Source of the DNA: an uncultured Collinsella sp.
GTDB lineage: Bacteria > Actinomycetota > Coriobacteriia > Coriobacteriales > Coriobacteriaceae
DNA: 64,000 nt
Reading direction: 5' to 3'
Assembly (NCBI GenBank): GCA_902493895.1
Contig: CABUQW010000003.1
Location: forward strand, 13,997-77,996
Shown here: piece after piece, positions 48,742-64,000 of the stretch
Position numbering within the stretch: position 1 is the stretch's first letter
How the letters are laid out: each line of letters opens with the position of its first letter
Translations under genes and position numbers: made by a program
The notes under the pieces: model-generated
Seen by the model: the letters and a program-made list of their open reading frames with translations, nothing else
Databases searched by the model: none
Told to the model about the DNA's origin: nothing

Positions 48742-48857
48742 GCTCTTTGGACTCCTATCGCGGCGGGCTCGCCGTACGGGTTATTATGGAATGCAGTATG
48801 CCGTGCGACCGCATGGCCGCCGCGGCAACAAGACTCAGTATACCCGGGGGAGCACCC

Positions 48858-51335
48858 ATGGAATCGTTGTACCGAAAGTATCGCCCGCTCACCTTTGACT
48901 CCGTGGTGGGCCAGCAGCATATCGTCTCGACGCTCGAGCACGCCATCACCGAGGGGCGCCTGTCCCACGCCTACCTGTTCTGCGGACCGCGCGGCACGGG
49001 CAAGACCACCATGGCGCGCATTCTGGCCAAGGCGCTGCTGTGCCGCAATGCCGAGGCGGCGCGCGCCGAGGGTGCAAGCGGCTGCATGCCCGACGGTACT
49101 TGCGAGGAGTGCGAGCTCATTGCCGAGGGTAACCACCCCGATGTCTACGAGCTCGATGCCGCAAGCCGTACCGGCGTGGACAACGTGCGCGAGGAGATCA
49201 TCAACTCCGTCAACTTTGCCCCAGTGCGCGGCAAGTACAAGATTTATATCATCGACGAGGTCCACATGCTCACGACGGCGGCGTTCAACGCGCTGCTCAA
49301 GACGCTTGAGGAGCCGCCGGCACACGTGATCTTTGTGCTGTGCACCACCGACCCGCAAAAGATTCTGGAGACCATTCTCTCACGCTGCCAGCGCTTCGAT
49401 TTCCACCGCATCGGCAACGAGGATATCGAGCATCGCCTGTCTTACGTGTGCGAGCAGGAGGGCTTCGATTACGACGACGAGGCACTCGCCATTGTGGCGC
49501 GCCATGCCAAGGGCGGTATGCGCGACGCGCTTTCCACGCTGGAGCAGCTGAGCGTCTTTGGCAACGGTTCTGTGCATGCGGACGACGCCCGCTCGCTTTT
49601 GGGCGAGGTTTCGGACCAGATTCTGGGCGAGTTTTCCCGCGCCATTGCCGATCGCGATGTTGCCGAGCTCTATGGACTGATCCGTGCGCAGGTCGAGGAG
49701 GGCAATGACCTGCTGGAGCTGACGCGCGACCTGGTGGCGCATGTGCGCGACGTGTACGTTGCCTGCGTTGCCGGTGCCCGTGCCGAGCTGTTTGAGGGCG
49801 GCTCCGAGCAGGCCGAGGCGCTTGCTGCCGAGGCCGCTGCCTTTGGCGAGCATCCTGCCGACCGCCTGGCCCGCGTGCTGACGGTGCTCGACGATGCCGC
49901 ACTGGAGATGAGGGGCGCGAGCGACGTGCGCCTGGTGCTCGAGATTGCCTGCACGCGTCTGGCGCGTCCCGAGGCCGATTTAACGATTGAGGCATTGGCC
50001 GAGCGCGTGGCACGCCTGGAGGCCATGATTGCCAACGGCGCCGTGCCGGCGAGCGTGGCTGCTGCTCAGGCCGCCGCGCCTGCAGCATCCGTACCCGCTG
50101 CTGCCCAACAGCCGACGCTCATTTCGGGCGCTCGTGCTGCCGCTCCGGCGGCATCCGCTGCCCCCGCTGCTACGTCCGCGCGCCAGGGCGGTATGCCTTG
50201 GGACCGCGGCGCTGCTGTTCCGGCTGCCCAGCCTGCGACCAAGTCCGCGGCTCCTGCGCCGGCGCCCAGACCTGTAACGCCTGCACCTCAGCCCGTTGCG
50301 GCTCCGGCTTCCGCGCCTGCTGCATCGACCGTGTCGGTGTCCAAGCCCAACAACGCCGCCCAGGTTGCCGCCGCCGGTGCTGCCGAGACCCCCGCGGTTG
50401 AGGACGCCGGCGAGCTCCAGCGCAAATGGGCCGAGGTCGTCGAGCGCGTCAAGGCTCGTCAGGCCTCCTACGCAGGGCTTTTGCTCAACGCCCGCGCCAC
50501 GGCCGACGACGGCTCCGAGCTCACGGTCTCGTTCCCCGCGGGTTCGACTTTTGCCATCAAGATGCTCGGTCGCGCCGATACGCAGTCGGTGGTCCTGCCG
50601 ACGGTCTGCGCGGTCTTCGGTCGTCGTACCGTCGACTATGTCCTGGATGGGGGTGGCGCGCCGGCTCCTCAACATGAGGAGCATTCTCCATCTGCACGGG
50701 CTGCGGTATCTGCGGACCCGCAACCCGTGTCCTCGGTGCCCCCTGCATCCTCGAGCGCCAGCGCGACGCAGCCAAAAGCGGCGCCGGTAGCGGCACCGAC
50801 CCCGTCGGCGCCTGAACCCGCTGCGCCCAAACCGGCTGCTCCGATCCCCGCGCCCAAGTCCGCTGCCGCGCCTGCGCCCAAGTCATCCGACCTGGCCAAG
50901 GCCCCTTGGCTGCGCTCCGACAACCCTGCCGGTGCTCCTGCCACGGGCAAGCTCCCGACCGAGCCCGCGCCCCGAGCGCCCGAGCGCGCGTCCGTCCCCA
51001 TGGCTCAGCCGCCTGCGCAGGCTGCGCCATGGGAATCCGAGCAGGTGCCCTACGACGATGCTATGGTCGGTGGTTTTGCTGCCGATGCCGGCGGGGACGA
51101 TCTGCCCCCGTTCGACGTGCCGGGTGCGGCGTCCGCGACCAAGGCCGCTGCTGTGGCACCCGCAGCCTCTGCAAACGACGACGTCCCCGCCGCTCCCTGG
51201 GAATCCAATCCCGGTGCTGGCAGCCCCTTCGGCCATCAGGGCGCAGCCCCGAGCATCCCGCAGACCGAGGACGAGGCCAAGGCCCTCATCCGCAGCGTCT
51301 TTGGCCAGGCCACCATCTTCAAGCCGGTGGAGTAG
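48858..51335 (+). CDS. dnaX: DNA polymerase III subunit gamma/tau DnaX with a long Ala/Pro-rich C-terminal region
   Basis: MESLYRKYRPLTFDSVVGQ, GPRGTGKTT, IIDEVHML and SRCQRF motifs. ATG 48858 is chosen over the track start. Confidence 0.9.
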   Translation: MESLYRKYRPLTFDSVVGQQHIVSTLEHAITEGRLSHAYLFCGPRGTGKTTMARILAKALLCRNAEAARAEGASGCMPDGTCEECELIAEGNHPDVYELDAASRTGVDNVREEIINSVNFAPVRGKYKIYIIDEVHMLTTAAFNALLKTLEEPPAHVIFVLCTTDPQKILETILSRCQRFDFHRIGNEDIEHRLSYVCEQEGFDYDDEALAIVARHAKGGMRDALSTLEQLSVFGNGSVHADDARSLLGEVSDQILGEFSRAIADRDVAELYGLIRAQVEEGNDLLELTRDLVAHVRDVYVACVAGARAELFEGGSEQAEALAAEAAAFGEHPADRLARVLTVLDDAALEMRGASDVRLVLEIACTRLARPEADLTIEALAERVARLEAMIANGAVPASVAAAQAAAPAASVPAAAQQPTLISGARAAAPAASAAPAATSARQGGMPWDRGAAVPAAQPATKSAAPAPAPRPVTPAPQPVAAPASAPAASTVSVSKPNNAAQVAAAGAAETPAVEDAGELQRKWAEVVERVKARQASYAGLLLNARATADDGSELTVSFPAGSTFAIKMLGRADTQSVVLPTVCAVFGRRTVDYVLDGGGAPAPQHEEHSPSARAAVSADPQPVSSVPPASSSASATQPKAAPVAAPTPSAPEPAAPKPAAPIPAPKSAAAPAPKSSDLAKAPWLRSDNPAGAPATGKLPTEPAPRAPERASVPMAQPPAQAAPWESEQVPYDDAMVGGFAADAGGDDLPPFDVPGAASATKAAAVAPAASANDDVPAAPWESNPGAGSPFGHQGAAPSIPQTEDEAKALIRSVFGQATIFKPVE

Positions 51336-53345: not shown

Positions 53346-54251
53346 ATGCGGCCCGGTGGCACTCAGACAAAGCGCGGCGCCGCGGTGCGCATGCGACGCC
53401 GGCTGGGCCTGGCGCCTCGGGCGTACGCGCTGCTGTCGTGCTCGCTGGTGCTGGTCATAGCTGGCGTTTCTGCCTATGGCATGACCGTGCCGTCCATGAT
53501 GCAAGCGCATGCCGCACGCGAACCGCGCGTGGGGCATGAGGTCAAAAGTGACCTAGGTACCACGACTGGATATGCTTGGGCAAGTGTGGTCGCGCATATT
53601 GTGTTTGGCACCGACGACGCGGACGGCGCCGAGGCCCCGGACAACGAAGTCACGCTTGCCAATGGCAAAACCATCGTGCTCACCAACACCAAGATCATCG
53701 ATCGGTTGTCCAACAATAGCGTGGCGGCAACGGTGAATAAAGTCGAGCAGCAAAAGGAGCAGGACGCCCAGCAGTCCGGAAAGCCCGGTAGCTCGGATAC
53801 TTCTGGCTCCGGCTCGGATTCATCGAGTTCGGGCGGCGGCTCTGGGGCGGGTTCCTCTACCGGAGGGTCTGGAAACGGCGGCTCGACGGGCGGCAACACT
53901 GACAACGATGCAAACTCCGGTGGCCTTTCCGCTGCTGAGGAAGAGAGCATTCACAGTTGGCTTGTGACCAAGTACAACATGCTCGACGGCTATGTTTCTC
54001 GTGCCAATGACGTGGTCTCGACCTATAACTCTACGGGAGATCCCAGGCCGTGCGACAGCCTGGTCGGGGAGATGTTTGTCATTCGAGCCGAGTTCGGTCG
54101 TCAGACATTCTCGCCCCGGTCAAAGTGGTATCAGCAGTATGCCAATCTGTGGGGCTGTTACACCAACCTATGCCAATGGGTCGGCCATTACGGCGATGAT
54201 GACGTCGCGCTCGGTAACTTCAACAATAACGTGGCGGCGCTTGCCCTATGA
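53346..54251 (+). CDS. Hypothetical membrane-anchored/secreted protein with a Gly/Ser-rich linker
   Basis: ATG 53346 is preceded by GGAGGAG. It has a signal-anchor (ALLSCSLVLVIAGVSAYG), and its stop overlaps the kinase start (ATGA). Confidence 0.55.
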   Translation: MRPGGTQTKRGAAVRMRRRLGLAPRAYALLSCSLVLVIAGVSAYGMTVPSMMQAHAAREPRVGHEVKSDLGTTTGYAWASVVAHIVFGTDDADGAEAPDNEVTLANGKTIVLTNTKIIDRLSNNSVAATVNKVEQQKEQDAQQSGKPGSSDTSGSGSDSSSSGGGSGAGSSTGGSGNGGSTGGNTDNDANSGGLSAAEEESIHSWLVTKYNMLDGYVSRANDVVSTYNSTGDPRPCDSLVGEMFVIRAEFGRQTFSPRSKWYQQYANLWGCYTNLCQWVGHYGDDDVALGNFNNNVAALAL

Positions 54252-56092
54252 TGACCGATCTTGCATCCACCACACCACAATCGCTCGGTCGCGATCCCAT
54301 GGTCGGCCTGCGCCTGGCGCGTGTCGACGGGTTTGAGCCGGCCATTGCGCTCGGTCAGGACGAGCTGCCTGCCTATCTGCGTCGTTTTACGATGCTGTTT
54401 GCCGACGATGCCACCATGCGCCGTGGCGGTATCGGCCGCGTGACGCGTGCCGTCAACGCCCAAGGCGAGGCCGTGGCACTCAAGCAGCTCATCTTGCCGA
54501 CGCGCGATGAGTTTGACGACGATGCCGCTCACGAGGCGCTGGTCGCCAAGTTCAAGGCGGCGTTTCGCGAGGAATACGAATGCCATCGCGCCCTTTCGGG
54601 CCTTAAGGGCTTTCCCCGCCTCTATGGCTGGGGCGAGGTCGACGGTGTGCCTGCAATTGTCATGGAATGGGTCGAGGGCGAGACGCTTGCCCGCTTGCGT
54701 TCGCGACTTGCCGTGGACGATGCCGGACGCCTGTCGCCGCTTGTGGCGGCGCGTCTGGGTCGCGACCTGTTCGATCTGCTCTGCCGTATGAGCCTGGTGG
54801 GCGAGGGCTTTGTCCATCGCGATATCTCGCCCGCTAATATTATGGTGCGCACGGCGCGTCTACCGCTTGACCGGCAGCTTGCCGAGGGCACCTTTGACCT
54901 GTGCCTGATCGACTTTGGCTCGTCACTGGCGCTTGAGCCTGCGTCGGCCGTGGTTAGTACCGGCGGCAAGGCGTCGTTTACGGAGCGTTATGCCACGCTG
55001 CGTCGCGCGACGGTTGCCTACGCCCCGCCCGAGATGCTCACCGACGATATTCCCGACCTGCGCGCTTTGCGTATGTCGCCGGCGATTGACGTTTATGCCG
55101 CGGCAAGCACGGTTTACGAGCTCATTGCCGGCGTCGTGCCATACGAAGCCGCGCCGAGCACTTCGGGCACCTCGGGTTCGCGCAAAAAGACGCGCGACAT
55201 CGCGAGCCCCTACCGTCTCAAGATGGACATGCGGCCCGACTATCCCATTGGTGCCCATGCGCCCGGTTGCGATTTGACTCAGCTGCTTCGTCGTGAGCCC
55301 GATGTGGCGCTCGCCGCGGCCGAGCAGGCCCAGCAGCTAGGGCTTGAGCCGGATTCCGAAGAGCTACGCGATGCGCTGGCGTTTGTCGATACCCAGCTGT
55401 TCGACGTGGTGATGGCCTGTCTGTCCAGCCATCAAAAAGATCGTCCCGAGCCGGCGGCGGTCGAGGCGGCGCTCTCGGCGTTTTGTGACCACTATGCGCA
55501 AAATGTCGGCCGTTCGCTCCGCGGCGAGCCGCTCACGCCGTGCCCCATGGATGCGTCTGGCCGCGCGGTTCGTCGCGCGCTGATGGTCGGCGCGACGGTC
55601 GTCTGTGGCGTGGTTTGGGCTGTGATCGTGGTTTCGGCCGCGCTGCTGGCGTCGGGCGCTCGCGTGACGGCGACTTTGGGATCGCTCGTGTGGTCTGGGT
55701 CGCTACCGGGTATTATTGCCGCACTGGCGTTGGCGCTGCCAGGCATAGCCGGCGTTGCCGCGGGGGCGCTTGCGCGCGATCGGCGCTCGGGCTTCCTGCA
55801 GGGTGTGCTTGCGCTTTCTGCCTGCGAGGTTCCGGTGCTGGTTGTGGCTGCATGTAGCGTATTTTCCCAACGCGCCGTGATGGGCGGCCTTGTTGCCGCT
55901 CTGGTTGCAACCTATACGCTTACGTGGTTTTTGCTTGCGATGGGCTTTGCCTTTGAACTTCCCGTTTCGGCACCACGACGCACAAAAGCCCAGATGGCGA
56001 CTCCGCTTGCCGGTGGAGCCGCAGCTGCCCGTACTTTTGGCGGACCTGTCGAAGTATCGTCCGATTCTATTTCTACGACCAAGGAGGCCTAG
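54248..56092 (+). CDS. Ser/Thr protein kinase with C-terminal multi-TM region
   Basis: Kinase motifs (GGIGRVTRAV, VALKQL, HRDISPANIM, DFGSS, APPE) followed by about 4-5 hydrophobic helices. Confidence 0.8.
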   Translation: MMTDLASTTPQSLGRDPMVGLRLARVDGFEPAIALGQDELPAYLRRFTMLFADDATMRRGGIGRVTRAVNAQGEAVALKQLILPTRDEFDDDAAHEALVAKFKAAFREEYECHRALSGLKGFPRLYGWGEVDGVPAIVMEWVEGETLARLRSRLAVDDAGRLSPLVAARLGRDLFDLLCRMSLVGEGFVHRDISPANIMVRTARLPLDRQLAEGTFDLCLIDFGSSLALEPASAVVSTGGKASFTERYATLRRATVAYAPPEMLTDDIPDLRALRMSPAIDVYAAASTVYELIAGVVPYEAAPSTSGTSGSRKKTRDIASPYRLKMDMRPDYPIGAHAPGCDLTQLLRREPDVALAAAEQAQQLGLEPDSEELRDALAFVDTQLFDVVMACLSSHQKDRPEPAAVEAALSAFCDHYAQNVGRSLRGEPLTPCPMDASGRAVRRALMVGATVVCGVVWAVIVVSAALLASGARVTATLGSLVWSGSLPGIIAALALALPGIAGVAAGALARDRRSGFLQGVLALSACEVPVLVVAACSVFSQRAVMGGLVAALVATYTLTWFLLAMGFAFELPVSAPRRTKAQMATPLAGGAAAARTFGGPVEVSSDSISTTKEA

Positions 56093-56095
56093 GTC

Positions 56096-57034
56096 ATGGC
56101 ATCTCAAGTTGAGCTCACCCCATGCGGGGCTATGTTTGACATCTTTAAGCGCGCGGCGCATCTGAGCCATATCGAGCTGTGCGGCTTGGTGCTTTCGTCC
56201 CGTCCGCTCGCCGACGGCCGCAGCCCGCAGAGCCGAGCCGCCGATCGCTCTTGGGTTTCCCGCTTTATCGTTCGCGCGCCGGTCGGCACGCTTCAGCAGC
56301 GCTACTTTGCCGAATACGGTACCTCGGCTGCGCGCATTATGTCGCAACTGGCCCTGCGCCAGCGAAATCCCATGGACTCCACGGCTGTGATCAATATGGT
56401 GTGCGGTCCTGCAGGTGAACCGATGGTACGCGCGCTCGAAGAGTGCCACCAGGACACGAATCTCTATCGCAACGCGCTCGATCGCCTGTCCCAGGCGGCG
56501 GAACTCATGCCCGCCGAGCGCGCCGAGGCCGTGCTGGTGCTGTTTGTCGCCGTCGGTTGTTCGGCGGATGTGCGGTCCTCGGTGAACTATGCCATCGACT
56601 ACGCACACGCGACCTGTGGCGGAGGCACATCCACGCCGCGTTCGCTTGGCATGTCGCTGACTGCGGGCGAACGCGAACCCGCCCCGGCGCACCCCTTGGG
56701 CTTGCTGCGCGTGCAAAACAGTTTTGTCGTGAGCGCCCCGCGCTGGATTCAGCCGAGTGAGCAGGGTGTTGAGATTGGCGCGCTGGCCACTGGTGAGGGC
56801 GATATTACCGACGTCGGCGACGATGTCTCGGCCCGCCATGCCCATATCTGGTGCGATGCTCAAAATATCTGGCACGTCGAGGACTTGTCGTCCACCAACG
56901 GAACCGTGGTGGTAAACGGGGCCACGAGTGTGTGTATTCAAGTAGAGCCCGGCCGCTCCGCCCAGCTCAACCCCGGCGACGAGCTCAAACTCGGCGAATC
57001 CACCACCTACGCCATCCTCTTCGGTGCTCTCTAG
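56096..57034 (+). CDS. FHA-domain protein with an unrecognised ~200 aa N-terminal domain
   Basis: C-terminal FHA (SARHAHIW..WHVEDLSSTNGTVVNG). AAGGAGG lies upstream, and the gene starts 4 nt after the kinase stop. Confidence 0.8.
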   Translation: MASQVELTPCGAMFDIFKRAAHLSHIELCGLVLSSRPLADGRSPQSRAADRSWVSRFIVRAPVGTLQQRYFAEYGTSAARIMSQLALRQRNPMDSTAVINMVCGPAGEPMVRALEECHQDTNLYRNALDRLSQAAELMPAERAEAVLVLFVAVGCSADVRSSVNYAIDYAHATCGGGTSTPRSLGMSLTAGEREPAPAHPLGLLRVQNSFVVSAPRWIQPSEQGVEIGALATGEGDITDVGDDVSARHAHIWCDAQNIWHVEDLSSTNGTVVVNGATSVCIQVEPGRSAQLNPGDELKLGESTTYAILFGAL

Positions 57035-57164
57035 CCAACCCCTCGATAAGTTGCGGTGAAATAGTTCTTGTTTAAGGCTGCGAACAGCAAAAAGGCGACA
57101 AAAGGCAAAGGATTTGGTGGGTGTAAAACGAGGTCGTTTGCGGGCGGACGCTCCAATCTATTGT

Positions 57165-57208
57165 GGCAATCGGGCGGTTGAAAAAGATATTTCAACCGCC
57201 CGATTGCC
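57165..57208. terminator. Perfect 19 bp-arm hairpin downstream of the FHA gene
   Basis: GGCAATCGGGCGGTTGAAA-N6-TTTCAACCGCCCGATTGCC. Confidence 0.55.
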
Positions 57209-57353
57209 AGATTCGTCGGAGGAGATGTCCGATTCCGACTCTCTTGTAGGAAGAACTTGAGATCGTATTGGCCCAAGGCAATCTAAAGCAGTCTCATTGG
57301 CAAATCTTCGCTCCTGTTGTGTTGAGGTGTAAGGTATCAGTGATTGATGTTTT

Positions 57354-59006
57354 GTGGCGGGTAGATTGGGGCCTTCCTTGATTCGATGCGTTCTCTCGAG
57401 GTTCATCAGAGCAAAAGGGGCTTTCGTCTTCATTGCTATCACGGTGATTGGAACCGCTCTCTCCTATGCCATGCCATACGTGAACGGGAAATTCTTAGAT
57501 TTTCTTCTTGGTAACCGCAGCGAAAGAGACGCCGTACTCTTCGCGCTCCTGGTTGCGTCAATAGGAGTTTTCTCCACCCTCTTTACTTATTTTGCAGGAA
57601 CACTTTCCATTCGCATAACCACGAGACTTTCCTTTGATCTTCTCAGGGAGGCCGTCTTGCGTTTTGAAAGAGACGATTACTTGGTGAGTCGGACCATCGA
57701 TCCAGCCTATACAACGCAACGGATTATTTCCGACTCCAGCGTGGTCTCATCCTTCGTTTTGGCGAATTTTATCAGTGCGCCGCTGTCCATTGTAGCCATT
57801 CCCATCGTATTGCTTATCATATGGTCAATTGATTCAACTCTCGCGGTGTTTTCCATCATTCTCCTCATCGTGTATTTCTGTGTAATTACTGGGTTGAGGA
57901 AACTTTTGTATAGGGTCACGTATGAGAAGAAAGAGGCGGACAGCGCCTTTTACGCCGCAATTGCATCGCAGCTTAATCAGATTCTCAACATTCAACTGAC
58001 ATCTTCGTACGGCAAGAGCGAACAAGCGCTCGACGCTGGGTTTAAGAGCTATTTTCCCAAAGTTTTGCGCTCCGGAAAGCTATCATATTCTCTGACATCG
58101 CTCGATGGTCTTTTCGCAGCGTTGTTTCAAGCGGTGATACTTGTTGTTTCCGGAGTACGAATCATTAACGGAACTATGTCAATAGGCGAGTACACTATCA
58201 TCGGTACATACTTCGCGGTTCTCTTTAAGACTTTGAAAAGTATGATGTCATTGTTCAAATCCTATCAAGATGCCAAAGCATCATGGGATAGGACGGCTAT
58301 CGCGACGAGAGAAAAGGAGAGATCGGGGTGGAATCGGACCGATTTAGCTAAACTCGATGAAATAAATGACATTTCGGTATCTGATTTGGAATTCTCGGTT
58401 GCCCTTCCAGACGGATCTGTCCGAGAGGTCCTCGGCGGGTTTTCTTTCAAGTTTTCCGGTCCTGGTACATATTGCATAGTTGGGGAAAACGGAAGAGGCA
58501 AGACGTCACTTCTTTACTTGATGCTCGGGCTATACTCATCGAAAGGCAAAGTAAAATACAACGGTGTGCCAATCGAAGAATGCGACTTGGATTACATACG
58601 TGCGAGAGAGATATCGTGCTGCCCACAGTCGTGCTTCGCGCCGGACGAAACGGTGAAAGAGCTGTTAGAGTATTTCGACACGCCCTTTTCTTCCTATCAC
58701 CGGGGTGTAGATGGCCTACTTTCGCTGGAAAACAGCGTGAAGGAGTTGCTCGGGAAACGTTGCTCCGCGCTTTCGGGCGGTGAGCTGCGCCGAGTGTACT
58801 TATGGTCGGCGATTTCACGCAAGTCGTCAGTTTTGGTACTCGACGAGCCCACGACTGGGTTAGACGCTGTAAGCCGCGCCGAGCTTGCGGCCTATGTTAA
58901 GCGCAACAAGCAAAGCCAGCTGATCATCGTTGTCTCTCACGATGAAGAGATAGTCGGCGCGGTAGAAGGGGTAGTGGATTTAGACAGCATGTACCAGGGT
59001 AAATGA
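57354..59006 (+). CDS. ABC exporter, fused permease + ATPase (no recognisable peptidase domain)
   Basis: Low-GC ORF with an N-terminal 5-6 TM domain, then Walker A GENGRGKTS, signature LSGGE and Walker B VLVLDEPT. The start codon is uncertain. Confidence 0.8.
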   Translation: MAGRLGPSLIRCVLSRFIRAKGAFVFIAITVIGTALSYAMPYVNGKFLDFLLGNRSERDAVLFALLVASIGVFSTLFTYFAGTLSIRITTRLSFDLLREAVLRFERDDYLVSRTIDPAYTTQRIISDSSVVSSFVLANFISAPLSIVAIPIVLLIIWSIDSTLAVFSIILLIVYFCVITGLRKLLYRVTYEKKEADSAFYAAIASQLNQILNIQLTSSYGKSEQALDAGFKSYFPKVLRSGKLSYSLTSLDGLFAALFQAVILVVSGVRIINGTMSIGEYTIIGTYFAVLFKTLKSMMSLFKSYQDAKASWDRTAIATREKERSGWNRTDLAKLDEINDISVSDLEFSVALPDGSVREVLGGFSFKFSGPGTYCIVGENGRGKTSLLYLMLGLYSSKGKVKYNGVPIEECDLDYIRAREISCCPQSCFAPDETVKELLEYFDTPFSSYHRGVDGLLSLENSVKELLGKRCSALSGGELRRVYLWSAISRKSSVLVLDEPTTGLDAVSRAELAAYVKRNKQSQLIIVVSHDEEIVGAVEGVVDLDSMYQGK

Positions 59007-59690
59007 TGACAAGTGTAGTGCTACCCAACTGGCAGAGATAACAAAAAGGCGATGCAGATGCACGTAGCATTCAGGCGGTTCGGACTCGGTGCCTTCACGC
59101 CATCGCAACGCTTTCAGATATAGTTCTCGTTCTCTTACTAAAGGAAACTTTAGTCTACGTCATCTTGTCGAGACAGAGGTGAAGCGAAGTGTTGTCGCGA
59201 CGTATCTTATTCCAGGTGGCTCAGTATCAGCGTGAGAATCGCACCAAAGTGTACTTACGATTCTCGTGTCCCACGGACAACATGAGCTGAGCATTGAGGT
59301 TCCACCCTTTGCTGCAACTACACGGGGTTGGACGGCAATGAATATGCCGGGCCGCATACCACGCGCAGCGGGGGTCCATGTCCCAGTATGTTGCCTACAG
59401 CAGCCTCGATGTCCACGCACACATCATCTCTGCCTTCGCGTTCAATCCATTTGCCGGAGAGTGCGAGGGTTGCCAGGCCGTAGAATTCGAGCCGAACAAA
59501 TGAAATGCGGTATCAGCGCATAGGATTAAACTGACGATTGCTTTGCACTGAGAATACGCTTGGAAAGCCGCTATGGGTGGCGGCCCAGGTTAAATAGAGA
59601 AGCCCGTCCGATCACTTTCATGTGGCGAGCGGTCGGGCTTCTTATTCCACTTGCCAATGCTCGGCTCATATTGGAAGAAAGCTACGCTAA

Positions 59691-60992
59691 TGGGGGGTGC
59701 GGACAGAAAGTTGGACCGCGGGGCGGTCCGGACTGGAGGTTCGCATGTACAGCAGGGAGAAGGTCGAGCTCTTCCTCCTGGCGACGGAGGACGGCATGGG
59801 GCCGACCGCCGCCGCGGAGTTCGCGGGGGTCTCGGTGGGCGCGGCCAAGAAGTGGGCGACGGGGCGCCTCCCGCACAGCTACACCGGGGCGCGCTGTAGA
59901 ATCGGGGCGAGGAAACCGCCACGGAAGGAGGCCAGCTTGGGCCCCGACAAGTCGATCTACGCCCCGCCGGCGACCGGCCCGCTCGCCGGGCTCAACGAGG
60001 ACCAGATAGAGAACCTGCTGCTCAGGGCGGTGTTGGCCGACCTAAAAGCGGAAGGGTGGGACCCGGCTTCGATCTCGAACAGGAGCAAGTGCGAGCTCGG
60101 CGAGAGATTGAGGCGGGCGACCGCCCTGCCCCTCCGCTCGATCACAGGTTTCTTGAGGATATCGAAGAGCTCCTATGAGTACTGGAGGCCCCGCGTCGCC
60201 GCGCCGCGCGACCGCGACGCCGACATACGCGACCGCGTGGTGCGCATCTTCCGCGAGGGCTCGGGGTGCTGGGGGTACCGCACCGTCTGGGCGCGCCTGC
60301 GCCGCGAGGGCGTCCGGGCCAGCGAGAAGCGCGTGGCCCGCGTGATGCGCGAGGAGGGCCTCGAGGTCGTCTACAACAAGAGGCGCGCCCGGGGCTACAG
60401 CTCCTACGCCGGCGAGGTCTCCAAGGCGCCGGAGAACCTCGTGAACAGGAGGTTCCGCGCCGACGAGCCCAACCGGCTGTGGCTCACCGACATCACCGAG
60501 TTCAGGCTCCCGGGCGGCGAGAAGGTCTACCTGAGCCCGATCGTCGACTGCTTCGACGGGATGCCCGTCGCCTGGTCGATCGGGCTGCACCCCGACAAGC
60601 GCCTCGCGAACTCGAGCCTGCTCAAGGCCTGCGCGGCGAGGCCGGCGGGGGTGCGCACGACGATCCACTCGGACCGGGGCGGCCACTACCGCTGGCCGGA
60701 GTGGATCGGGATCTGCGAGGAGAACGGCCTGGTCAGGAGCATGTCCGCGAAGGGCTGCAGCCCGGACAACTCGGCCTGCGAGGGCTTCTTCGGGCGCCTC
60801 AAGAACGAGTTCTTCCACTACAGGGACTGGGAGGGCGTGACGGCCGAGGAGTTCATGGGAAGGCTCGAGGCCTACCTCGTGTACTATCGTGAGGAGCGGA
60901 TCAAGAAGTCCCTCGGGTGGCTGAGCCCGATGGAGTACCGCAGGAAGCTTGGATACGCCTAGGCGCGGTCCAAGAAATCGTCCGCACCCCCA
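59691..60992 (+). mobile_element. IS3-family insertion sequence (~1.3 kb)
   Basis: Imperfect terminal inverted repeats TGGGGG(G)TGCGGAC..TTGGACCGCG at both ends, with TG...CA termini. It is markedly GC-rich relative to its AT-rich flanks. I could not identify a target-site duplication. Confidence 0.8.
59745..60962 (+). CDS. IS3-family transposase (HTH + rve/DDE integrase core in one frame)
   Basis: rve-type core (WLTDITEF, SDRGGHY, CSPDNSACEGFFGRLKNE) and an N-terminal HTH region. ATG 59745 is preceded by GGAGG. Confidence 0.9.
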   Translation: MYSREKVELFLLATEDGMGPTAAAEFAGVSVGAAKKWATGRLPHSYTGARCRIGARKPPRKEASLGPDKSIYAPPATGPLAGLNEDQIENLLLRAVLADLKAEGWDPASISNRSKCELGERLRRATALPLRSITGFLRISKSSYEYWRPRVAAPRDRDADIRDRVVRIFREGSGCWGYRTVWARLRREGVRASEKRVARVMREEGLEVVYNKRRARGYSSYAGEVSKAPENLVNRRFRADEPNRLWLTDITEFRLPGGEKVYLSPIVDCFDGMPVAWSIGLHPDKRLANSSLLKACAARPAGVRTTIHSDRGGHYRWPEWIGICEENGLVRSMSAKGCSPDNSACEGFFGRLKNEFFHYRDWEGVTAEEFMGRLEAYLVYYREERIKKSLGWLSPMEYRRKLGYA

Positions 60993-61008
60993 TGTTTGCG
61001 TGACACTC

Positions 61009-61116
61009 CTATTTTCTCCGAAGAAAGAGTCGGATAATGAAGAATAGAATTAAAAAAGGTGCCAGATATAACGCAAGTATAAAGGCTAATCCAACGAGAC
61101 CTTGCAATAATGGCAT
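61009..61116 (-). CDS. Possible 35 aa hydrophobic peptide (MPLLQGLVGLAFILALYLAPFLILFFIIRLFLRRK)
   Basis: Own translation. ATG is preceded by GGGAGGAG. It has a single TM-like segment with a basic tail and lies downstream of the precursor genes. It is below the ORF-track cutoff. Confidence 0.35.
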   Translation of the reverse strand: MPLLQGLVGLAFILALYLAPFLILFFIIRLFLRRK

Positions 61117-61194
61117 AACTCCTCCCAGACACGAGATTTTGGTATTTGTTCCCATCTTATTCTGAATTGGACCAAATAGTTCCTAGCCACAAAA

Positions 61195-61374
61195 CTACTC
61201 GTCAACTGGATCGCACCAATCTGCTGGCAAAACACAGCTTGATTCTTTATCGACATAGCACCAATCCGCAACAGGGCACTCGGCGATGTCGTAAAAATTG
61301 CATATATCAACTCCAAGACAACAAGGCTCAACGGGAGGATGTTCATTTGAGCCAACAGGATGGATATGCTTCAT
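61195..61374 (-). CDS. RiPP precursor peptide A (59 aa): MKHIHPVGSNEHPPVEPCCLGVDICNFYDIAECPVADWCYVDKESSCVLPADWCDPVDE
   Basis: Own translation. ATG is preceded by AAGGTGAGGAG. It shares the MKHIHP N-terminus and the C.LG..DIC..YD block with peptide B and lies next to the rSAM/SPASM gene. It is not in the ORF track (under 60 aa), and the overlapping 89 aa track ORF is in another frame. Confidence 0.65.
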   Translation of the reverse strand: MKHIHPVGSNEHPPVEPCCLGVDICNFYDIAECPVADWCYVDKESSCVLPADWCDPVDE

Positions 61375-61404
61375 AACAGCTCCTCACCTTAATCCAATTA
61401 GAGA

Positions 61405-61608
61405 CTACGTTTGATCAATGCCACAGTGATCTACAACGCAGATGCTGCCGCCATCCATGTCATAGTCGCAGTAATCGTATGCACCACAGCCATCTGCTTT
61501 ATCATAAACAGTACAGATGTCAGTAATGCCCAAGAGGCAGTCAAAAGACATCGGCTTCACGCCTGCCTCGTCGCCACTTCCTGGATTAATCGGATGAATA
61601 TGCTTCAC
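61405..61608 (-). CDS. RiPP precursor peptide B (67 aa): (M)KHIHPINPGSGDEAGVKPMSFDCLLGITDICTVYDKADGCGAYDYCDYDMDGGSICVVDHCGIDQT
   Basis: GTG 61608 is preceded by AGGGAGG with 5 nt spacing. The track ORF (to 61656) is probably over-extended. Paralogous to peptide A. Confidence 0.65.
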   Translation of the reverse strand: MKHIHPINPGSGDEAGVKPMSFDCLLGITDICTVYDKADGCGAYDYCDYDMDGGSICVVDHCGIDQT

Positions 61609-61777
61609 GACTACCTCCCTTTGAGTGCAGAAAAACCTCAATATTGTGTATAACAAACCAAGATGTCTAGTTCACCATATTTCTAGAATGGTTTCGGCGA
61701 ACGTAGCAATAAGCTTTGCAGACGGTAATCAGAAGAACGAACACCTCCACAATGGTGACAGCAATGCGCTGAACCGC

Positions 61778-62353
61778 TTATTCCGATACAGTAGCTTCTC
61801 GTTGATTTTTCTCCTGCGAAGATGAGTGGCGGGAAATAAGGTCAAAAGCCATCTCGTAGCACATTTTTCTATATTCACATGATGCAGGGTGTAGACTCTT
61901 GGGCAAGTAGCCGTGCTCGTCTGCAGCCTCCCAGCTACAGCCCCCACCACAGAAAGACCGAGCCCAACAGTCCGTACAGTCAATTCTTTTTTCGACACCC
62001 TGACTCCAGTTTTCAATATACCTAGTTTCGTCAATTCCGGTGACGATGTTGCCCATTTTGAATCGCATCATCCCGACAAACCTGTGACAGGGGTATACGT
62101 CCCCTTCGGGAGTCACGGAAATAAAACGCCTGCCAGCCCCGCATCCGACAAAGGCGATCCTGTTGCTCATAATCAAATCAACTGCAGTTTTCAATGTTCT
62201 AAACAAGGGCTTTTCCCCTTGATCAATCTGTTTGAGATATTGATCCGCCAAATCTATTAGGCCCGCCCTGATTTTGTTTAATGAGTGTTCGTCGAGTTTG
62301 ATATTCTCATCGAATGAGCTCACGGGCGAGAAGTAAATCCTTCTGAAGCCCAT
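61778..62353 (-). CDS. C-terminal (SPASM) part of a radical-SAM peptide maturase, separated from the N-terminal part by an in-frame TAA
   Basis: CGAGRRFISVTPEGDVYPC and the CTDCWARSFCGGGC (Cx2Cx5Cx3C) SPASM motifs. It is in the same reading frame as 62357-63166. Confidence 0.8.
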   Translation of the reverse strand: MGFRRIYFSPVSSFDENIKLDEHSLNKIRAGLIDLADQYLKQIDQGEKPLFRTLKTAVDLIMSNRIAFVGCGAGRRFISVTPEGDVYPCHRFVGMMRFKMGNIVTGIDETRYIENWSQGVEKRIDCTDCWARSFCGGGCSWEAADEHGYLPKSLHPASCEYRKMCYEMAFDLISRHSSSQEKNQREATVSE

Positions 62354-62356
62354 CTC

Positions 62357-63166
62357 TTAAAACTGAAGATAGTCTTCAACAAGGTTACAGTTATTATTTG
62401 TTAAGGTCGCTCTTGCGCCGAAGGGGAACGACTCGGAAAAACGACGAACGTTTTTGTCGATATCGGAGAAAGAGCCGCCTCCCGTCTTGTACGGGCGCGA
62501 TGCATCGTGCTTGCATCCTGTACCATCGAGACTAATCAGAACAGAAAACCCGTGCTCCTTGAAAGAATTCACAGCAGTGTCATTCAAAAGCGTTCCGTTG
62601 GTCGTAATAGAATAGGTAAAGTTTCTATTGGGGTATATTCTTTTTGAATAGTCGACCGTTTTCCATATCAGCGGCTCGTTAATCATGGGTTCCCCACCAA
62701 AAAAGACGATCGCAAGCGTTTCGTTTTCCGATGAACTTGCGACGAGGTAGTCGACCGCCTTGAAGGCTATCTCGTCTGTCATCAGCAGAGGAGACGTTCC
62801 ATAATCTCCTTTACCGGCAAAACAGTAACTACAACCAAGGTTGCATGCATGTGAAACGTGGAGTTCGATGGATCTAAGTTTTCGAGGCGTGTCTTTTGTT
62901 AAGAAAGTCCGCTCAGACAATCGTTGATACTCATCAATGTCGTCTTCAAGTTCTGCTATGGTCGTTTGGTCGTAGCCTTTCGCAGCAAGTGACTTTGTTA
63001 GCAACTTCGAGTTGACCGTTCTTCCCGATGCTTCAAATATGCGAAGCGCATCTTCTGATGCTTGGTCAACCTGAAAGCAATTGCGAGTGACCTCATCGAA
63101 GCAGTAACGACGATCACTTACTGAGAAAAAATGCATACGTTCCTCAATTTCATGCTGGACTGGCAC
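62357..63166 (-). CDS. N-terminal part of a radical-SAM peptide maturase (RRE-like leader-binding region + CxxxCxxC core)
   Basis: HVSHACNLGCSYCFA (Cx3Cx2C) and a GGEP motif, with ~90 aa before the cluster as in RiPP rSAM enzymes. It ends ..VEDYLQF-TAA-E-MGFRR.., which continues in frame into 61778-62353. Confidence 0.8.
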   Translation of the reverse strand: MPVQHEIEERMHFFSVSDRRYCFDEVTRNCFQVDQASEDALRIFEASGRTVNSKLLTKSLAAKGYDQTTIAELEDDIDEYQRLSERTFLTKDTPRKLRSIELHVSHACNLGCSYCFAGKGDYGTSPLLMTDEIAFKAVDYLVASSSENETLAIVFFGGEPMINEPLIWKTVDYSKRIYPNRNFTYSITTNGTLLNDTAVNSFKEHGFSVLISLDGTGCKHDASRPYKTGGGSFSDIDKNVRRFSESFPFGARATLTNNNCNLVEDYLQF

Positions 63167-63652
63167 TAACCTTGTTTATTGTTGCGCAGCTATAAAAAAC
63201 CACCAGCGGGGATTCGGTGTGCGGCCCAATCGGACTCCCAAAAGGTTCTATTTGAGACTGGCAAGCTTTGTGTTGTTGGCACTTCGACAGCGCTCTTTAT
63301 TCCAACATGGAGCCTCGCAGTTTGAGTCGACTTGCCTCTGGAAGGTCCGATCTTAACTTGATTTAGGATGAAAACAGATTACAGGCGCGCTCCTCTAGAA
63401 AGAAAGGAAACCAATCGCCGCCTTTCACCAGGAAAGTTTTTATAGCCCACCTCGAGCAAAATGAAAGATGCGAGAGCGATTGGGGAACAACGCGAATCTC
63501 CCCTTTTGGGTGGGAGCGAGCCTTCAGCCACCGGCGAACGACTCGCCCTGGTCAGAATCTGGAAGTGGTGCCGGGCCGCTTGGGCCTTCCCGGTGACTTC
63601 GTGGGGCTTACCTGCCTGACGTCGAGGAGTACATCCGCAAGATTCGTTCCCT

Positions 63653-64000
63653 ATGCCGTTTGCTCTCACGCCCGCCTTAGTTCCAAGTCGGGCGAGCCGC
63701 CGCGCTCATGCGACCCGTGGCGGCGACACGTCGACGCCGCGCTCGCTGAGCACATCTTCGGTCGCGGGCGAGCACGAGGTCGCGCCGGCGCATCCGCTGG
63801 GACTGCTGTGCGTGCAAAACGGCTACGTGGTGAGCGTCCCGCGCTGGATTCAGCCGAGTGAGGAAGGCGTTGAGATCGGCGCGCTGGCAACGGGGGAGGG
63901 CGGCATCACCGACGACGTCGGCGACGATGTCTCGGCCCGCCATGCCCATATCTGGTGCGATGCTCAAAATATCTGGCACGTCGAGGACTTGTCGTCCACC
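63653..64000 (+). pseudogene. Truncated second copy of the FHA-protein gene 3' region (runs off the window)
   Basis: The frame translates to ..HATRGGDTSTPRSL..APAHPLGLLCVQNGYVVSVPRWIQPSEEGVEIGALATGEG..DVGDDVSARHAHIWCDAQNIWHVEDLSST, paralleling residues ~180-267 of the 56096-57034 product. The last 87 nt are identical to 56810-56896. The frame is closed upstream by TGA at 63617. Confidence 0.6.

What the first reader, a model, noticed from the sequence alone, without database searches (positions are those of the whole stretch)
61009..63166. Radical-SAM/SPASM RiPP cluster with two hidden Cys/Asp-rich precursor genes inside a low-GC island
On the minus strand a ~462 aa radical-SAM enzyme carries an N-terminal RRE-like region, Cx3Cx2C and a SPASM Cx2Cx5Cx3C motif. 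It is followed by two short ORFs with strong Shine-Dalgarno sites (59 and 67 aa). These share the leader start MKHIHP and a conserved C.LG..DIC..YD block. A possible 35 aa hydrophobic peptide comes next. An ABC exporter lies convergently on the other side of an IS element. Neither precursor is properly represented in the ORF track: A is under 60 aa and masked by a spurious out-of-frame ORF, and B is over-extended. This architecture is that of sactipeptide/ranthipeptide-type RiPPs. The peptide sequences are not ones I recognise, and such clusters are not a well-known feature of high-GC Coriobacteriia-like genomes. This is my best candidate for an undescribed system in the window.
Basis: partly seen in the sequence, partly recalled or inferred. 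Interest (0 to 1): 0.85.

Follow-up and report, generated by a model that had tools for sequence, protein, structure and literature searches.

The report
Broken thioether-peptide gene cluster in Collinsella
This is a real but uncharacterised gene cluster for two cysteine/aspartate-rich peptides that a radical-SAM enzyme probably cross-links; it is common in the human-gut bacterium Collinsella, but in this genome a stop codon breaks the enzyme gene.

Summary
On the minus strand lie:
- a radical-SAM/SPASM maturase (63136..61778, 452 aa if read through);
- two precursor genes, B (67 aa) and A (59 aa);
- a 35-aa membrane ORF.
A leaderless-type ABC exporter lies convergent to them. All sit in a 45-50% GC island in a ~63% GC Collinsella genome.

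The maturase has an RRE-like N-domain, CX3CX2C and a 7-Cys SPASM region. Its model superposes full-length on the ranthipeptide maturase CteB, better than on anSME. The precursors are real genes: they keep their synteny down to 33% maturase identity and have pN/pS of 0.10-0.24. They belong to a small unnamed family in which only six Cys and six Asp are conserved.

My best reading is a freyrasin-like ranthipeptide with six Cys-Asp thioethers per peptide. It falls below the curated PapB, SCIFF and QhpD cut-offs, and its precursors miss the freyrasin-like model.

The island is >98% identical in 80+ Collinsella genomes, where the peptides are annotated "hypothetical protein". This window's copy carries a K260* nonsense allele, also seen in independent metagenomes, plus a private IS insertion, so it is probably inactive.

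Verdict: a new member of a known kind, of moderate interest.

The parts
61778..63136 (-). Radical-SAM/SPASM peptide maturase. It is 452 aa if read through, and here it is interrupted by an in-frame stop.
   Evidence: Pfam finds Radical_SAM, Fer4_12 and SPASM. NCBIfam best hits are PapB, SCIFF, nif11 and QhpD, all below their cut-offs. CteB scores 2e-64. The AF2 model has pLDDT 93.5 and TM 0.83 to CteB. The intact allele P0001 has the same 452-aa length and is near-identical to the read-through translation (reported as 100%, but differing at least at Ile/Met167 and at the stop).
62357..62359 (-). In-frame TAA (K260*) that splits the maturase into 259-aa and 191-aa ORFs.
   Evidence: The sequence shows it. 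Intact alleles have AAA/Lys. All 80 genome-collection loci are intact (81 of the 83 related loci fetched; the other two, fetched through frameshift variant P0003, are frameshifted). The same split allele is found in independent metagenome assemblies L095 and L097.
62879..63136 (-). N-terminal RRE-like leader-binding domain of the maturase, about residues 1-86.
   Evidence: The model has strands at 2-6, 9-14 and 19-23 and helices at 25-36, 43-52 and 57-71. Domain-only Foldseek ranks the CteB N-domain first (rmsd 2.3-2.5 A over 73 columns), then TbiB1, PqqD, ThcOx and McbB, all with E>0.05. The PapB RRE is residues 1-86 (PMC12715619).
61405..61608 (-). Precursor peptide B: 67 aa, GTG start, six Cys each followed by an Asp.
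   Evidence: SD AAGGGAGG. The core is almost invariant in the 83 related loci. Orthologues sit next to maturases of 73% and 67% identity. pN/pS is 0.13-0.24.
61195..61374 (-). Precursor peptide A: 59 aa, with six conserved Cys-Xn-Asp units plus one extra Cys.
   Evidence: SD GGTGAGGAG. It is conserved across loci, and most of the variation falls in the leader. pN/pS is 0.10-0.19. Family alignments are A1, A3 and A4.
61009..61116 (-). 35-aa single-pass membrane ORF with a basic C-terminus. It may be an immunity or accessory peptide.
   Evidence: SD GGGAGGAG. It was found intact in 82 of the 83 related loci, with mostly conservative substitutions; in the remaining locus the search pattern did not match. 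Positional equivalents exist in L084 and L085. pN/pS is 0.33 against L084.
57354..59006 (+). ABC exporter: a fused permease-ATPase of 550 aa with no peptidase domain, convergent to the peptide operon.
   Evidence: Pfam finds ABC_membrane and ABC_tran. NCBIfam aligns only the non-peptidase part of the bacteriocin-type exporter models. Orthologues of 72% and 47% identity sit beside the homologous maturases in L084 and L085.
59693..60991 (+). IS element with an rve-type transposase (59697..60962), inserted between the membrane ORF and the exporter.
   Evidence: It has 28-nt inverted repeats and Pfam rve/HTH_21/rve_2. All 83 related loci lack it, with a 3-bp duplication (ATG) at the empty site.
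57000..63550 (.). Low-GC island (42-51% GC, IS excluded) that carries the cluster.
   Evidence: Composition profiles show it. It is 98-99.9% identical in 80+ Collinsella genomes. Homologous clusters are also low-GC islands at other sites in the high-GC hosts L084, L085 and L093, but match their flanks in the low-GC hosts L092 and L101.

Best explanation
This is a five-gene RiPP cluster acquired horizontally by Collinsella. It holds a maturase, precursor B, precursor A, a 35-aa membrane peptide, and a convergent ABC exporter.

Proposed mechanism
1. The two precursors are translated with a short conserved leader, MKH(I/V)x(P/L)(I/L/V)(N/G)....
2. The N-terminal RRE of the radical-SAM/SPASM maturase binds that leader.
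3. The enzyme cleaves SAM at its CX3CX2C cluster. The 5'-deoxyadenosyl radical abstracts a side-chain hydrogen from an Asp.
4. The carbon radical is captured by the thiolate of the Cys lying 2-6 residues upstream. That Cys is presumably held on an auxiliary [4Fe-4S] cluster of the SPASM domain.
5. This happens six times per peptide. The products are two strongly acidic, hexacyclic, in-line thioether peptides (net charge about -9), that is, freyrasin-like ranthipeptides.
6. The ABC transporter exports them. The small membrane peptide may give self-protection or assist export. No leader protease is encoded in the island.

Status of each step
- Shown: gene content; enzyme fold and cluster motifs; the RRE-like fold; precursor conservation, synteny and purifying selection; the invariant 6 Cys + 6 Asp pattern.
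- Inferred: the Cys-to-Asp (beta-carbon) thioether chemistry, the ring topology, export, and the biological role (bacteriocin or signal).

In this genome the maturase carries the K260* nonsense allele, so the cluster is most likely inactive here. The IS insertion is intergenic.

How likely each layer is (my estimates): a radical-SAM-dependent RiPP cluster acting on these two precursors, about 0.9; Cys-Asp thioether chemistry specifically, about 0.6; this window's copy being non-functional, about 0.85. The overall confidence of 0.6 refers to the full statement.
For: Enzyme
- Pfam finds Radical_SAM, Fer4_12 and SPASM.
- C98/C102/C105 and seven SPASM-region Cys (C332, C350, C387, C390, C396, C400, C420) are invariant in 62 homologues.
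- The closest curated models are the thioether-forming maturases PapB, ScfB, nif11-type and QhpD.
- CteB scores 2e-64 by sequence. The full-length structural match has TM 0.83 and includes the N-domain.
- The top neighbours of the N-domain alone are mostly RREs.

Precursors
- Both have SD sites.
- In the 83 related loci the cores are almost invariant, while most of the variation falls in the leaders.
- Pairs or triplets of homologous peptides lie next to homologous maturases in L084, L085, L092, L093 and L101.
- Core pN/pS is 0.10-0.24, with synonymous sites saturated.
- In the 36-member family alignment the only invariant or near-invariant core residues are Cys and Asp: C19, D23, C25, C33, D37, C39, D42, D52, C54 and D58 in peptide A numbering.
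- The Cys-then-Asp ordering is non-random.

Precedent
- The PapA leader LKQINVIAGVKEPIRAYG-C (PMC10739248) resembles leaders of this family, such as MKHVVLIAGQ...AC.

Pairing direction (inference)
- C-Xn-D pairing uses all six Cys and all six Asp.
- The alternative D-x-C pairing would leave the first Cys and the last Asp unpaired.

Inactivation
- TAA sits at codon 260, against Lys in P0001 and intact genes in all 80 genome-collection loci.
- The same allele recurs in independent samples.
Against: - No chemistry has been observed. The thioether type and the acceptor atom are inferred from analogy.
- The maturase is below every curated NCBIfam cut-off: PapB 272 against 340, SCIFF 266 against 425.
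- The PapB model does not discriminate. True SCIFF maturases score as high on it (P0028, 294 bits).
- The precursors do not match NCBIfam 'freyrasin_like' NF037957. Only 1 of 36 family members matched, at E=0.15.
- Ring spacings are irregular (n = 2-5) rather than uniform CX3D.
- Some family members have Asn in place of the second Asp.
- The cluster has no protease, regulator or recognisable immunity protein.
- No PqqD Pfam hit was found at sequence level.
- The domain-only Foldseek E-values are all >0.05.
Confidence: 0.6

Rival explanations
1. The peptides are sactipeptides. The same enzyme class would link each Cys sulfur to an alpha-carbon of an acceptor residue, giving hairpin or in-line sactionine bridges.
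For: Sactipeptide maturases share the RRE + rSAM + SPASM architecture. RumMC, SkfB and StsB models give weak hits. CteB itself was first described under 'sactipeptides' (PDB title).
Against: The best-scoring relatives are all non-alpha thioether enzymes (PapB, ScfB/CteB, QhpD). Sactisynthase models score far lower (RumMC 120 bits, StsB 64). The strictly conserved acceptor candidates are Asp, which is the PapB/QhpD acceptor (PMC9413430, PMC8172795).
Confidence: 0.1
2. It is a RiPP cluster with a different radical-SAM modification, such as C-C or C-O cross-links or epimerisation. The Cys would form ordinary disulfides or bind metal, and the Asp would serve charge or metal binding.
For: SPASM maturases catalyse many chemistries, and the enzyme falls outside all curated equivalog families. 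The products would be Cys/Asp-rich and very acidic, which is compatible with metal binding.
Against: There is a one-to-one, ordered pairing of six invariant Cys with six invariant Asp. Aromatic residues, the usual partners for C-C and C-O links, are not conserved. The nearest enzymes are thioether formers.
Confidence: 0.12
3. The enzyme is not a natural-product system. It would be a protein-maturation enzyme of the QhpD or anSME type acting on another protein, and the short ORFs would be incidental.
For: QhpD and anSME models give significant hits (240 and 113 bits). anSME is the second structural neighbour.
Against: Both scores are far below their cut-offs (453 and 349). No qhp or sulfatase genes lie nearby. 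The enzyme has an RRE-like domain that anSME lacks. The short ORFs co-vary in position with the enzyme across distant homologues and are under purifying selection.
Confidence: 0.02
4. The split maturase is still functional in this genome, either by stop-codon read-through or by re-initiation at the ATG 3 nt after the TAA. In that case the cluster here would be active.
For: An ATG follows the stop directly (TAA GAG ATG). The allele persists in several independent samples. Precursors, membrane ORF and exporter are all intact.
Against: The break lies inside the radical-SAM barrel, between helix 252-262 and strand 266-271 of the model. No SD precedes the internal ATG. All 80 species-representative genomes keep one ORF. 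Other alleles with frameshifts (P0003, P0007, P0013, P0014) suggest recurrent loss rather than a designed split.
Confidence: 0.1

Closest known systems
[quoted passage not shown]
   Same: - The precursor is a short leader followed by six Cys, each with a downstream Asp.
- The leaders are similar: PapA is LKQINVIAG...G-C (PMC10739248) and this family has, for example, MKHVVLIAG...AC.
- The maturase has an approximately 86-residue N-terminal RRE, an rSAM core and SPASM (PapB RRE 1-86, PMC12715619).
- PapB is nominally the top NCBIfam hit.
   Different: - The score is below the PapB cut-off (272 against 340), and SCIFF maturases score as well on that model.
- The precursors do not hit the freyrasin_like HMM.
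- Spacings are mixed (C-X2-5-D), not uniform CX3D.
- There are two to three different precursors per cluster.
- The host is a high-GC gut actinobacterium.
SCIFF/thermocellin system (ScfA/ScfB; CteA/CteB, PDB 5WGG)
   Same: - CteB is the best solved-structure relative: 2e-64 by sequence and TM 0.83 over the full length, including the RRE.
- Both have a six-Cys precursor and the same cluster ligands.
   Different: - The score is 266 bits against the TIGR03974 cut-off of 425. True ScfB proteins score 600-720.
- The peptides do not match any SCIFF precursor model.
- The conserved acceptor here is Asp, not Thr.
- A dedicated ABC exporter is present.
QhpD (thioether maturase of the quinohemoprotein amine dehydrogenase gamma subunit)
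   Same: QhpD makes Cys-Asp/Glu thioethers (PMC8172795), and the two enzymes share homologous rSAM/SPASM regions (240 bits).
   Different: The score is below the cut-off of 453. There are no qhpA/B/C genes. The substrate here is a small leader-bearing peptide with an exporter, not an enzyme subunit.
Cys-rich rSAM RiPP families in NCBIfam (CcpM, CefA/CefB 'Cys-every-fifth', CXXX-repeat)
   Same: All are Cys-rich short precursors next to an rSAM/SPASM maturase.
   Different: The scores are low: CcpM 188 against 500, CefB 104 against 600, CXXX-repeat 102 against 350. CefA matched only 1 of 36 family members, at E=0.13.

Membership tests
Ranthipeptide-type rSAM/SPASM RiPP cluster (class level) | Radical-SAM core with a CX3CX2C cluster motif | tested here: met
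   The motif is CNLGCSYC at C98/C102/C105, invariant in 62 homologues. Pfam Radical_SAM scores 1.8e-14.
Ranthipeptide-type rSAM/SPASM RiPP cluster (class level) | C-terminal SPASM domain with the Cys ligands for two auxiliary [4Fe-4S] clusters | tested here: met
   Pfam SPASM is found. Seven Cys are invariant: C332, C350, C387, C390, C396, C400 and C420.
Ranthipeptide-type rSAM/SPASM RiPP cluster (class level) | RiPP recognition element (PqqD-like beta3-alpha3 domain) | tested here: met
   The AF2 topology is beta3-alpha3 at residues 2-71. The full-length model superposes on CteB, N-domain included. The domain alone is closest to the CteB N-domain, TbiB1, PqqD, ThcOx and McbB, but each has E>0.05. 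There is no PqqD Pfam hit.
Ranthipeptide-type rSAM/SPASM RiPP cluster (class level) | Adjacent, conserved, Cys-containing precursor peptide(s) with leader and core | tested here: met
   Two precursors are conserved with the maturase at 73%, 67%, 44% and 40% identity, and three homologous precursors accompany the 33%-identity maturase. pN/pS is 0.10-0.24.
Ranthipeptide-type rSAM/SPASM RiPP cluster (class level) | Thioether from Cys sulfur to a non-alpha carbon of the acceptor | not testable with these tools
   This needs MS/MS and NMR on the modified peptide.
PapB / freyrasin family | Maturase reaches the NCBIfam NF047865 (rSAM_PapB) cut-off of 340 bits | tested here: not met
   It scores 272 bits. 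Relatives score 258-307, and true SCIFF maturases score 274-294 on the same model.
PapB / freyrasin family | Precursor matches NCBIfam NF037957 (freyrasin family ranthipeptide) | tested here: not met
   Peptides A and B give no hit at E<=0.1. Only 1 of 36 family members matched, at E=0.15.
PapB / freyrasin family | Six Cys-Xn-Asp units in the core (CX3D in PapA) | tested here: met
   There are six conserved Cys, each with its own downstream Asp. In A, n = 3, 3, 3, 2, 4 and 3; in B, n = 5, 3, 3, 2, 2 and 2. PapB accepts n = 0-6 (PMC9413430).
SCIFF (ScfA/ScfB) | Maturase reaches the TIGR03974 cut-off (425 bits) and a SCIFF-type precursor is present | tested here: not met
   It scores 266 bits, and the peptides match no NCBIfam model. 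Genuine ScfB proteins score 608-721.
QhpD | TIGR03906 cut-off of 453 bits, with neighbouring qhpA/B/C genes | tested here: not met
   It scores 240 bits. The island contains only the maturase, two peptides, a membrane ORF, an exporter and an IS.
Anaerobic sulfatase-maturating enzyme | TIGR03942 cut-off of 349 bits, no RRE, and a sulfatase partner | tested here: not met
   It scores 113 bits. TM is 0.65 over about 375 columns that exclude the N-domain. No sulfatase gene lies nearby.

The most novel reading that the evidence does not exclude
A previously unrecognised ranthipeptide family pairs two or more precursors and makes six Cys-Asp thioether rings of mixed size. The family moved from low-GC Firmicutes into Coriobacteriia. 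It is now carried by a large share of human-gut Collinsella as a near-identical 5.3-kb island, and natural null alleles (K260*, frameshifts) segregate in the population. This would be an uncharacterised secreted, highly anionic peptide pair (a bacteriocin, signal or metal-binding factor) from one of the most prevalent gut actinobacteria, and it would come with ready-made natural knock-outs.
Probability: 0.5. Interest if true: 0.55.

Novelty: new member of a known kind. Interest (0 to 1): 0.4.

Why it matters
- Collinsella is a prevalent human-gut genus that is often linked to host phenotypes, and almost nothing is known about its secreted peptides.
- The island is >98% identical across 80+ species-level Collinsella genomes. 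It would give two defined candidate products and an enzyme whose substrate rings vary in size (C-X2-5-D).
- That variation is relevant because PapB-type enzymes are being developed as peptide-macrocyclisation catalysts.
- Segregating null alleles such as the one in this window offer natural controls for testing function.
- For genome annotation, the case shows that precursors under 60 aa and nonsense-split maturases are missed by simple ORF tracks.
- The cluster follows the canonical ranthipeptide blueprint, so it extends a known class rather than revealing new biology.

Tried and rejected
- Rfam scan of 56800-64000 at E<=0.1 found nothing, so there is no riboswitch or known leader RNA.
- The promoter and terminator scan found no more sites than shuffles do. 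A weak -35/-10 site at 61669-61640 upstream of precursor B is not significant.
- At sequence level no PqqD/RRE Pfam domain was found. The RRE call rests on structure only.
- NCBIfam precursor models (freyrasin_like, CefA, SCIFF) gave no meaningful match.
- I rejected using the PapB HMM as evidence of specific PapB kinship, because true SCIFF maturases score equally on it.
- Six literature searches found no paper on this cluster. They covered Collinsella + ranthipeptide, Collinsella + radical SAM + RiPP, the peptide strings, the leader strings, and ranthipeptide + human gut. The two Collinsella/ranthipeptide papers I opened mention ranthipeptides only in BGC surveys and do not describe this cluster.
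- I considered the idea that the island is much more conserved than its flanks, which would point to a recent sweep. The difference is only modest, 99.2-99.8% against about 97.7%, so I make no claim.
- Sequencing error as the cause of the stop codon is rejected, because the same allele occurs in independent samples.
- The tblastn comparison of the window's ABC exporter with the exporters in L092 and L093 gave no hit at 1e-10. Those clusters use different transport and immunity genes.


Full report
**1. Observation**

- A radical-SAM gene runs from 63136 to 61778. ATG is the start used by all homologues; the upstream GTG at 63166 would give 462 codons.
- An in-frame TAA interrupts it at 62359-62357 (...DYLQF*EMGF...).
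- It carries CNLGCSYC (CX3CX2C) and CTDCWARSFCGGGC (CX2CX5CX3C).
- Pfam finds Radical_SAM, Fer4_12 and SPASM.

Three short ORFs follow, each behind a strong Shine-Dalgarno site:

| ORF | Coordinates | Length | Notes |
|---|---|---|---|
| Precursor B | 61608..61405 | 67 aa | GTG start |
| Precursor A | 61374..61195 | 59 aa | |
| Hydrophobic ORF | 61116..61009 | 35 aa | |

The surroundings also match the description.

- A 1299-bp IS lies at 59693-60991. It has 28-nt inverted repeats and an rve transposase.
- The IS separates these ORFs from a convergent ABC exporter at 57354..59006, which has no peptidase domain.
- GC is 42-51% over about 57000-63500, IS excluded, against about 63% elsewhere.

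**2. Provenance and population context**

A scan of species-representative genomes gave 391 tblastn-confirmed matches. The best 80 were kept, and all are Collinsella or Coriobacteriaceae.

- In every one of them the island is contiguous and 98-99.9% identical to the window. None carries the IS.
- A 3-bp duplication (ATG) marks the insertion site, so the IS is private to this genome.
- The maturase is an intact 452-aa ORF in all 80.
- The wild-type codon at the stop is AAA (Lys260; P0001).
- The same split allele (259 + 191 aa) occurs in independent metagenome assemblies L095 and L097.
- Several other contigs carrying the 259-aa product end exactly at the variable site, which I take as a hint of an assembly bubble there.

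The nonsense mutation is therefore a real segregating allele and not a sequencing error. Other disrupted alleles (frameshifts P0003, P0007, P0013, P0014) also exist.

Public annotation already calls both peptides 'hypothetical protein [Collinsella]' and the enzyme 'radical SAM/SPASM domain-containing protein'.

**3. The enzyme**

- Against NCBIfam the joined protein scores best on thioether-forming peptide maturases: PapB 272 bits, SCIFF maturase 266, nif11-type 258 and QhpD 240. anSME scores only 113. None reaches its curated cut-off.
- The same is true for all clade members I tested. Genuine SCIFF maturases score 600-720 on their own model and about 290 on the PapB model. The PapB 'top hit' is therefore not diagnostic.
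- The best solved relative is CteB (5WGG, 2e-64).
- An AlphaFold model built on 62 homologues has pLDDT 93.5. It superposes on CteB over about 450 columns with TM 0.83. For anSME the TM is 0.65 and the N-domain is not covered.
- Residues 2-71 form three strands followed by three helices, which is the RRE topology.
- Modelled alone, this domain's nearest structures are the CteB N-domain (rmsd 2.3-2.5 A), TbiB1, PqqD, ThcOx and McbB. All are RRE-bearing proteins, although each E-value is above 0.05.
- Three rSAM Cys and seven SPASM-region Cys are invariant.

**4. The precursors**

Homologous maturases bring the same kind of peptides with them.

| Locus | Maturase identity | Gene content |
|---|---|---|
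| L084 | 73% | Full set: B-type, A-type, small membrane ORF, ABC exporter |
| L085 | 67% | Same full set |
| L092 | 44% | Two related precursors, ABC-2 transporter, Rce1-like protein, exporter |
| L093 | 40% | Same as L092 |
| L101 | 33% | Three precursors starting MKHIKLLN |

- Core pN/pS between Collinsella-type orthologues is 0.10-0.24, with synonymous sites saturated.
- Within the 83 related loci fetched, most of the variation falls in the leaders.
- An exhaustive HMMER search of 1.84 billion representatives found only 43 family members at E<=1e-3. None carries a functional name.
- In the 36-sequence alignment the only invariant or near-invariant core residues are six Cys and six Asp, in strict alternation. 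The sixth Cys, C47 in peptide A, falls in alignment columns that are not fully resolved.
- Shuffling the cores rarely reproduces this ordering: 15 and 62 of 20000 trials.
- The predicted cores are very acidic, about -9.

**5. Mechanism**

The closest precedent is freyrasin.

- PapB installs six Cys-S to Asp-C(beta) thioethers in CX3D motifs of PapA. It tolerates C-Xn-D with n = 0-6 and has an RRE at residues 1-86 (PMC9413430, PMC8172795, PMC12715619).
- The PapA leader LKQINVIAGVKEPIRAYG-C (PMC10739248) resembles leaders of this family, for example MKHVVLIAGQ...AC.
- I therefore infer leader binding by the RRE, hydrogen abstraction at Asp, and capture by the upstream Cys, six times per peptide. 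ABC export would follow.
- Pairing Cys with the downstream Asp uses all twelve conserved residues. The alternative D-x-C pairing leaves two unused.

These steps are inferred, not shown. No leader protease, regulator or recognisable immunity gene lies in the island. The conserved 35-aa membrane ORF is the only candidate accessory.

**6. Membership**

- Class-level features are met: rSAM, SPASM, RRE-like domain and conserved Cys-rich precursors.
- The maturase fails the curated PapB, SCIFF, QhpD and anSME thresholds.
- The precursors fail the freyrasin-like and CefA models.

It works like a freyrasin-type ranthipeptide system but is not a member of the curated PapA/PapB family. It is an unassigned clade within the ScfB/PapB/QhpD group.

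**7. Origin**

- Homologous clusters are 46-50% GC islands at three different chromosomal sites in 62-66% GC hosts (L084, L085, L093).
- In the low-GC hosts L092 and L101 they match the GC of their flanks.

This is consistent with transfer from Firmicutes-like donors. In the Collinsella aerofaciens group the island always sits between two paralogous FHA-domain genes.

**8. Literature**

No paper in the held library describes this cluster or these peptide sequences. The two Collinsella/ranthipeptide papers I opened mention ranthipeptides only in BGC surveys and do not describe this cluster.

**9. Verdict**

It can be refined to a freyrasin-like Cys-Asp ranthipeptide cluster with two precursors.
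- The cluster is widespread in gut Collinsella and uncharacterised.
- In this window it is very probably dead, because of K260*.
- It is a new member of a known kind, with interest 0.4.

Noticed in passing
window 59693-60991: This is a 1299-bp IS with 28-nt inverted repeats, a single 421-aa rve/HTH_21 transposase ORF and a 3-bp target duplication (ATG). It occurs once in the window and is absent from all 83 related loci, so it is a recent, private insertion.
   Followed up: yes
window 56602-56896 and 63703-64000: The island is bracketed by paralogous FHA-domain genes. One is the 312-aa gene at 56096-57034, and the other is a copy that runs off the window end. Of the repeat, 88 nt are 100% identical while the adjacent 222 nt are only 78% identical. 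This looks like a gene-conversion tract or an integration scar.
   Followed up: partly
window 57164-57209: A perfect 20-nt inverted repeat with a 6-nt loop sits at the left edge of the low-GC island, between the FHA gene stop and the ABC exporter start. It could be a terminator, an operator or an island end.
   Followed up: no
window 59007-59692: An ORF-poor spacer of about 690 nt and intermediate GC (48-54%) lies between the exporter stop and the IS. It is conserved in the C. aerofaciens group. In L085 the corresponding gap between the membrane ORF and the exporter is only 25 nt. Its content is unexplained.
   Followed up: no
proteins P0003, P0007, P0013, P0014 (loci L082, L083): Public assemblies hold several independent frameshift alleles of the same maturase. 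One cluster of truncated products has 550 member sequences. Together with K260*, this suggests recurrent loss of function in the Collinsella population.
   Followed up: partly
L090 4357-6301 and L091: In a relative with a 48%-identity maturase, a second and different rSAM/SPASM enzyme (416-444 aa) sits next to a B-type precursor and a Mutator-type transposase. This hints at a two-maturase version of the system.
   Followed up: no
L092, L093, L101: Distant versions of the cluster add an ABC-2 ATPase and permease pair and an Rce1-like CPBP protein. In bacteriocin loci these are typical immunity modules. The Collinsella island lacks them.
   Followed up: partly
window 54248-57034: A Ser/Thr protein kinase (614 aa) and an FHA-domain protein (312 aa) lie immediately upstream of the island. 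They are syntenic in other Collinsella genomes, next to recR/ybaB. They are not part of the low-GC island.
   Followed up: no
window 50001-51000: This stretch has a local GC spike (71.8%) inside a long ORF at 48747-51335. I did not examine it.
   Followed up: no
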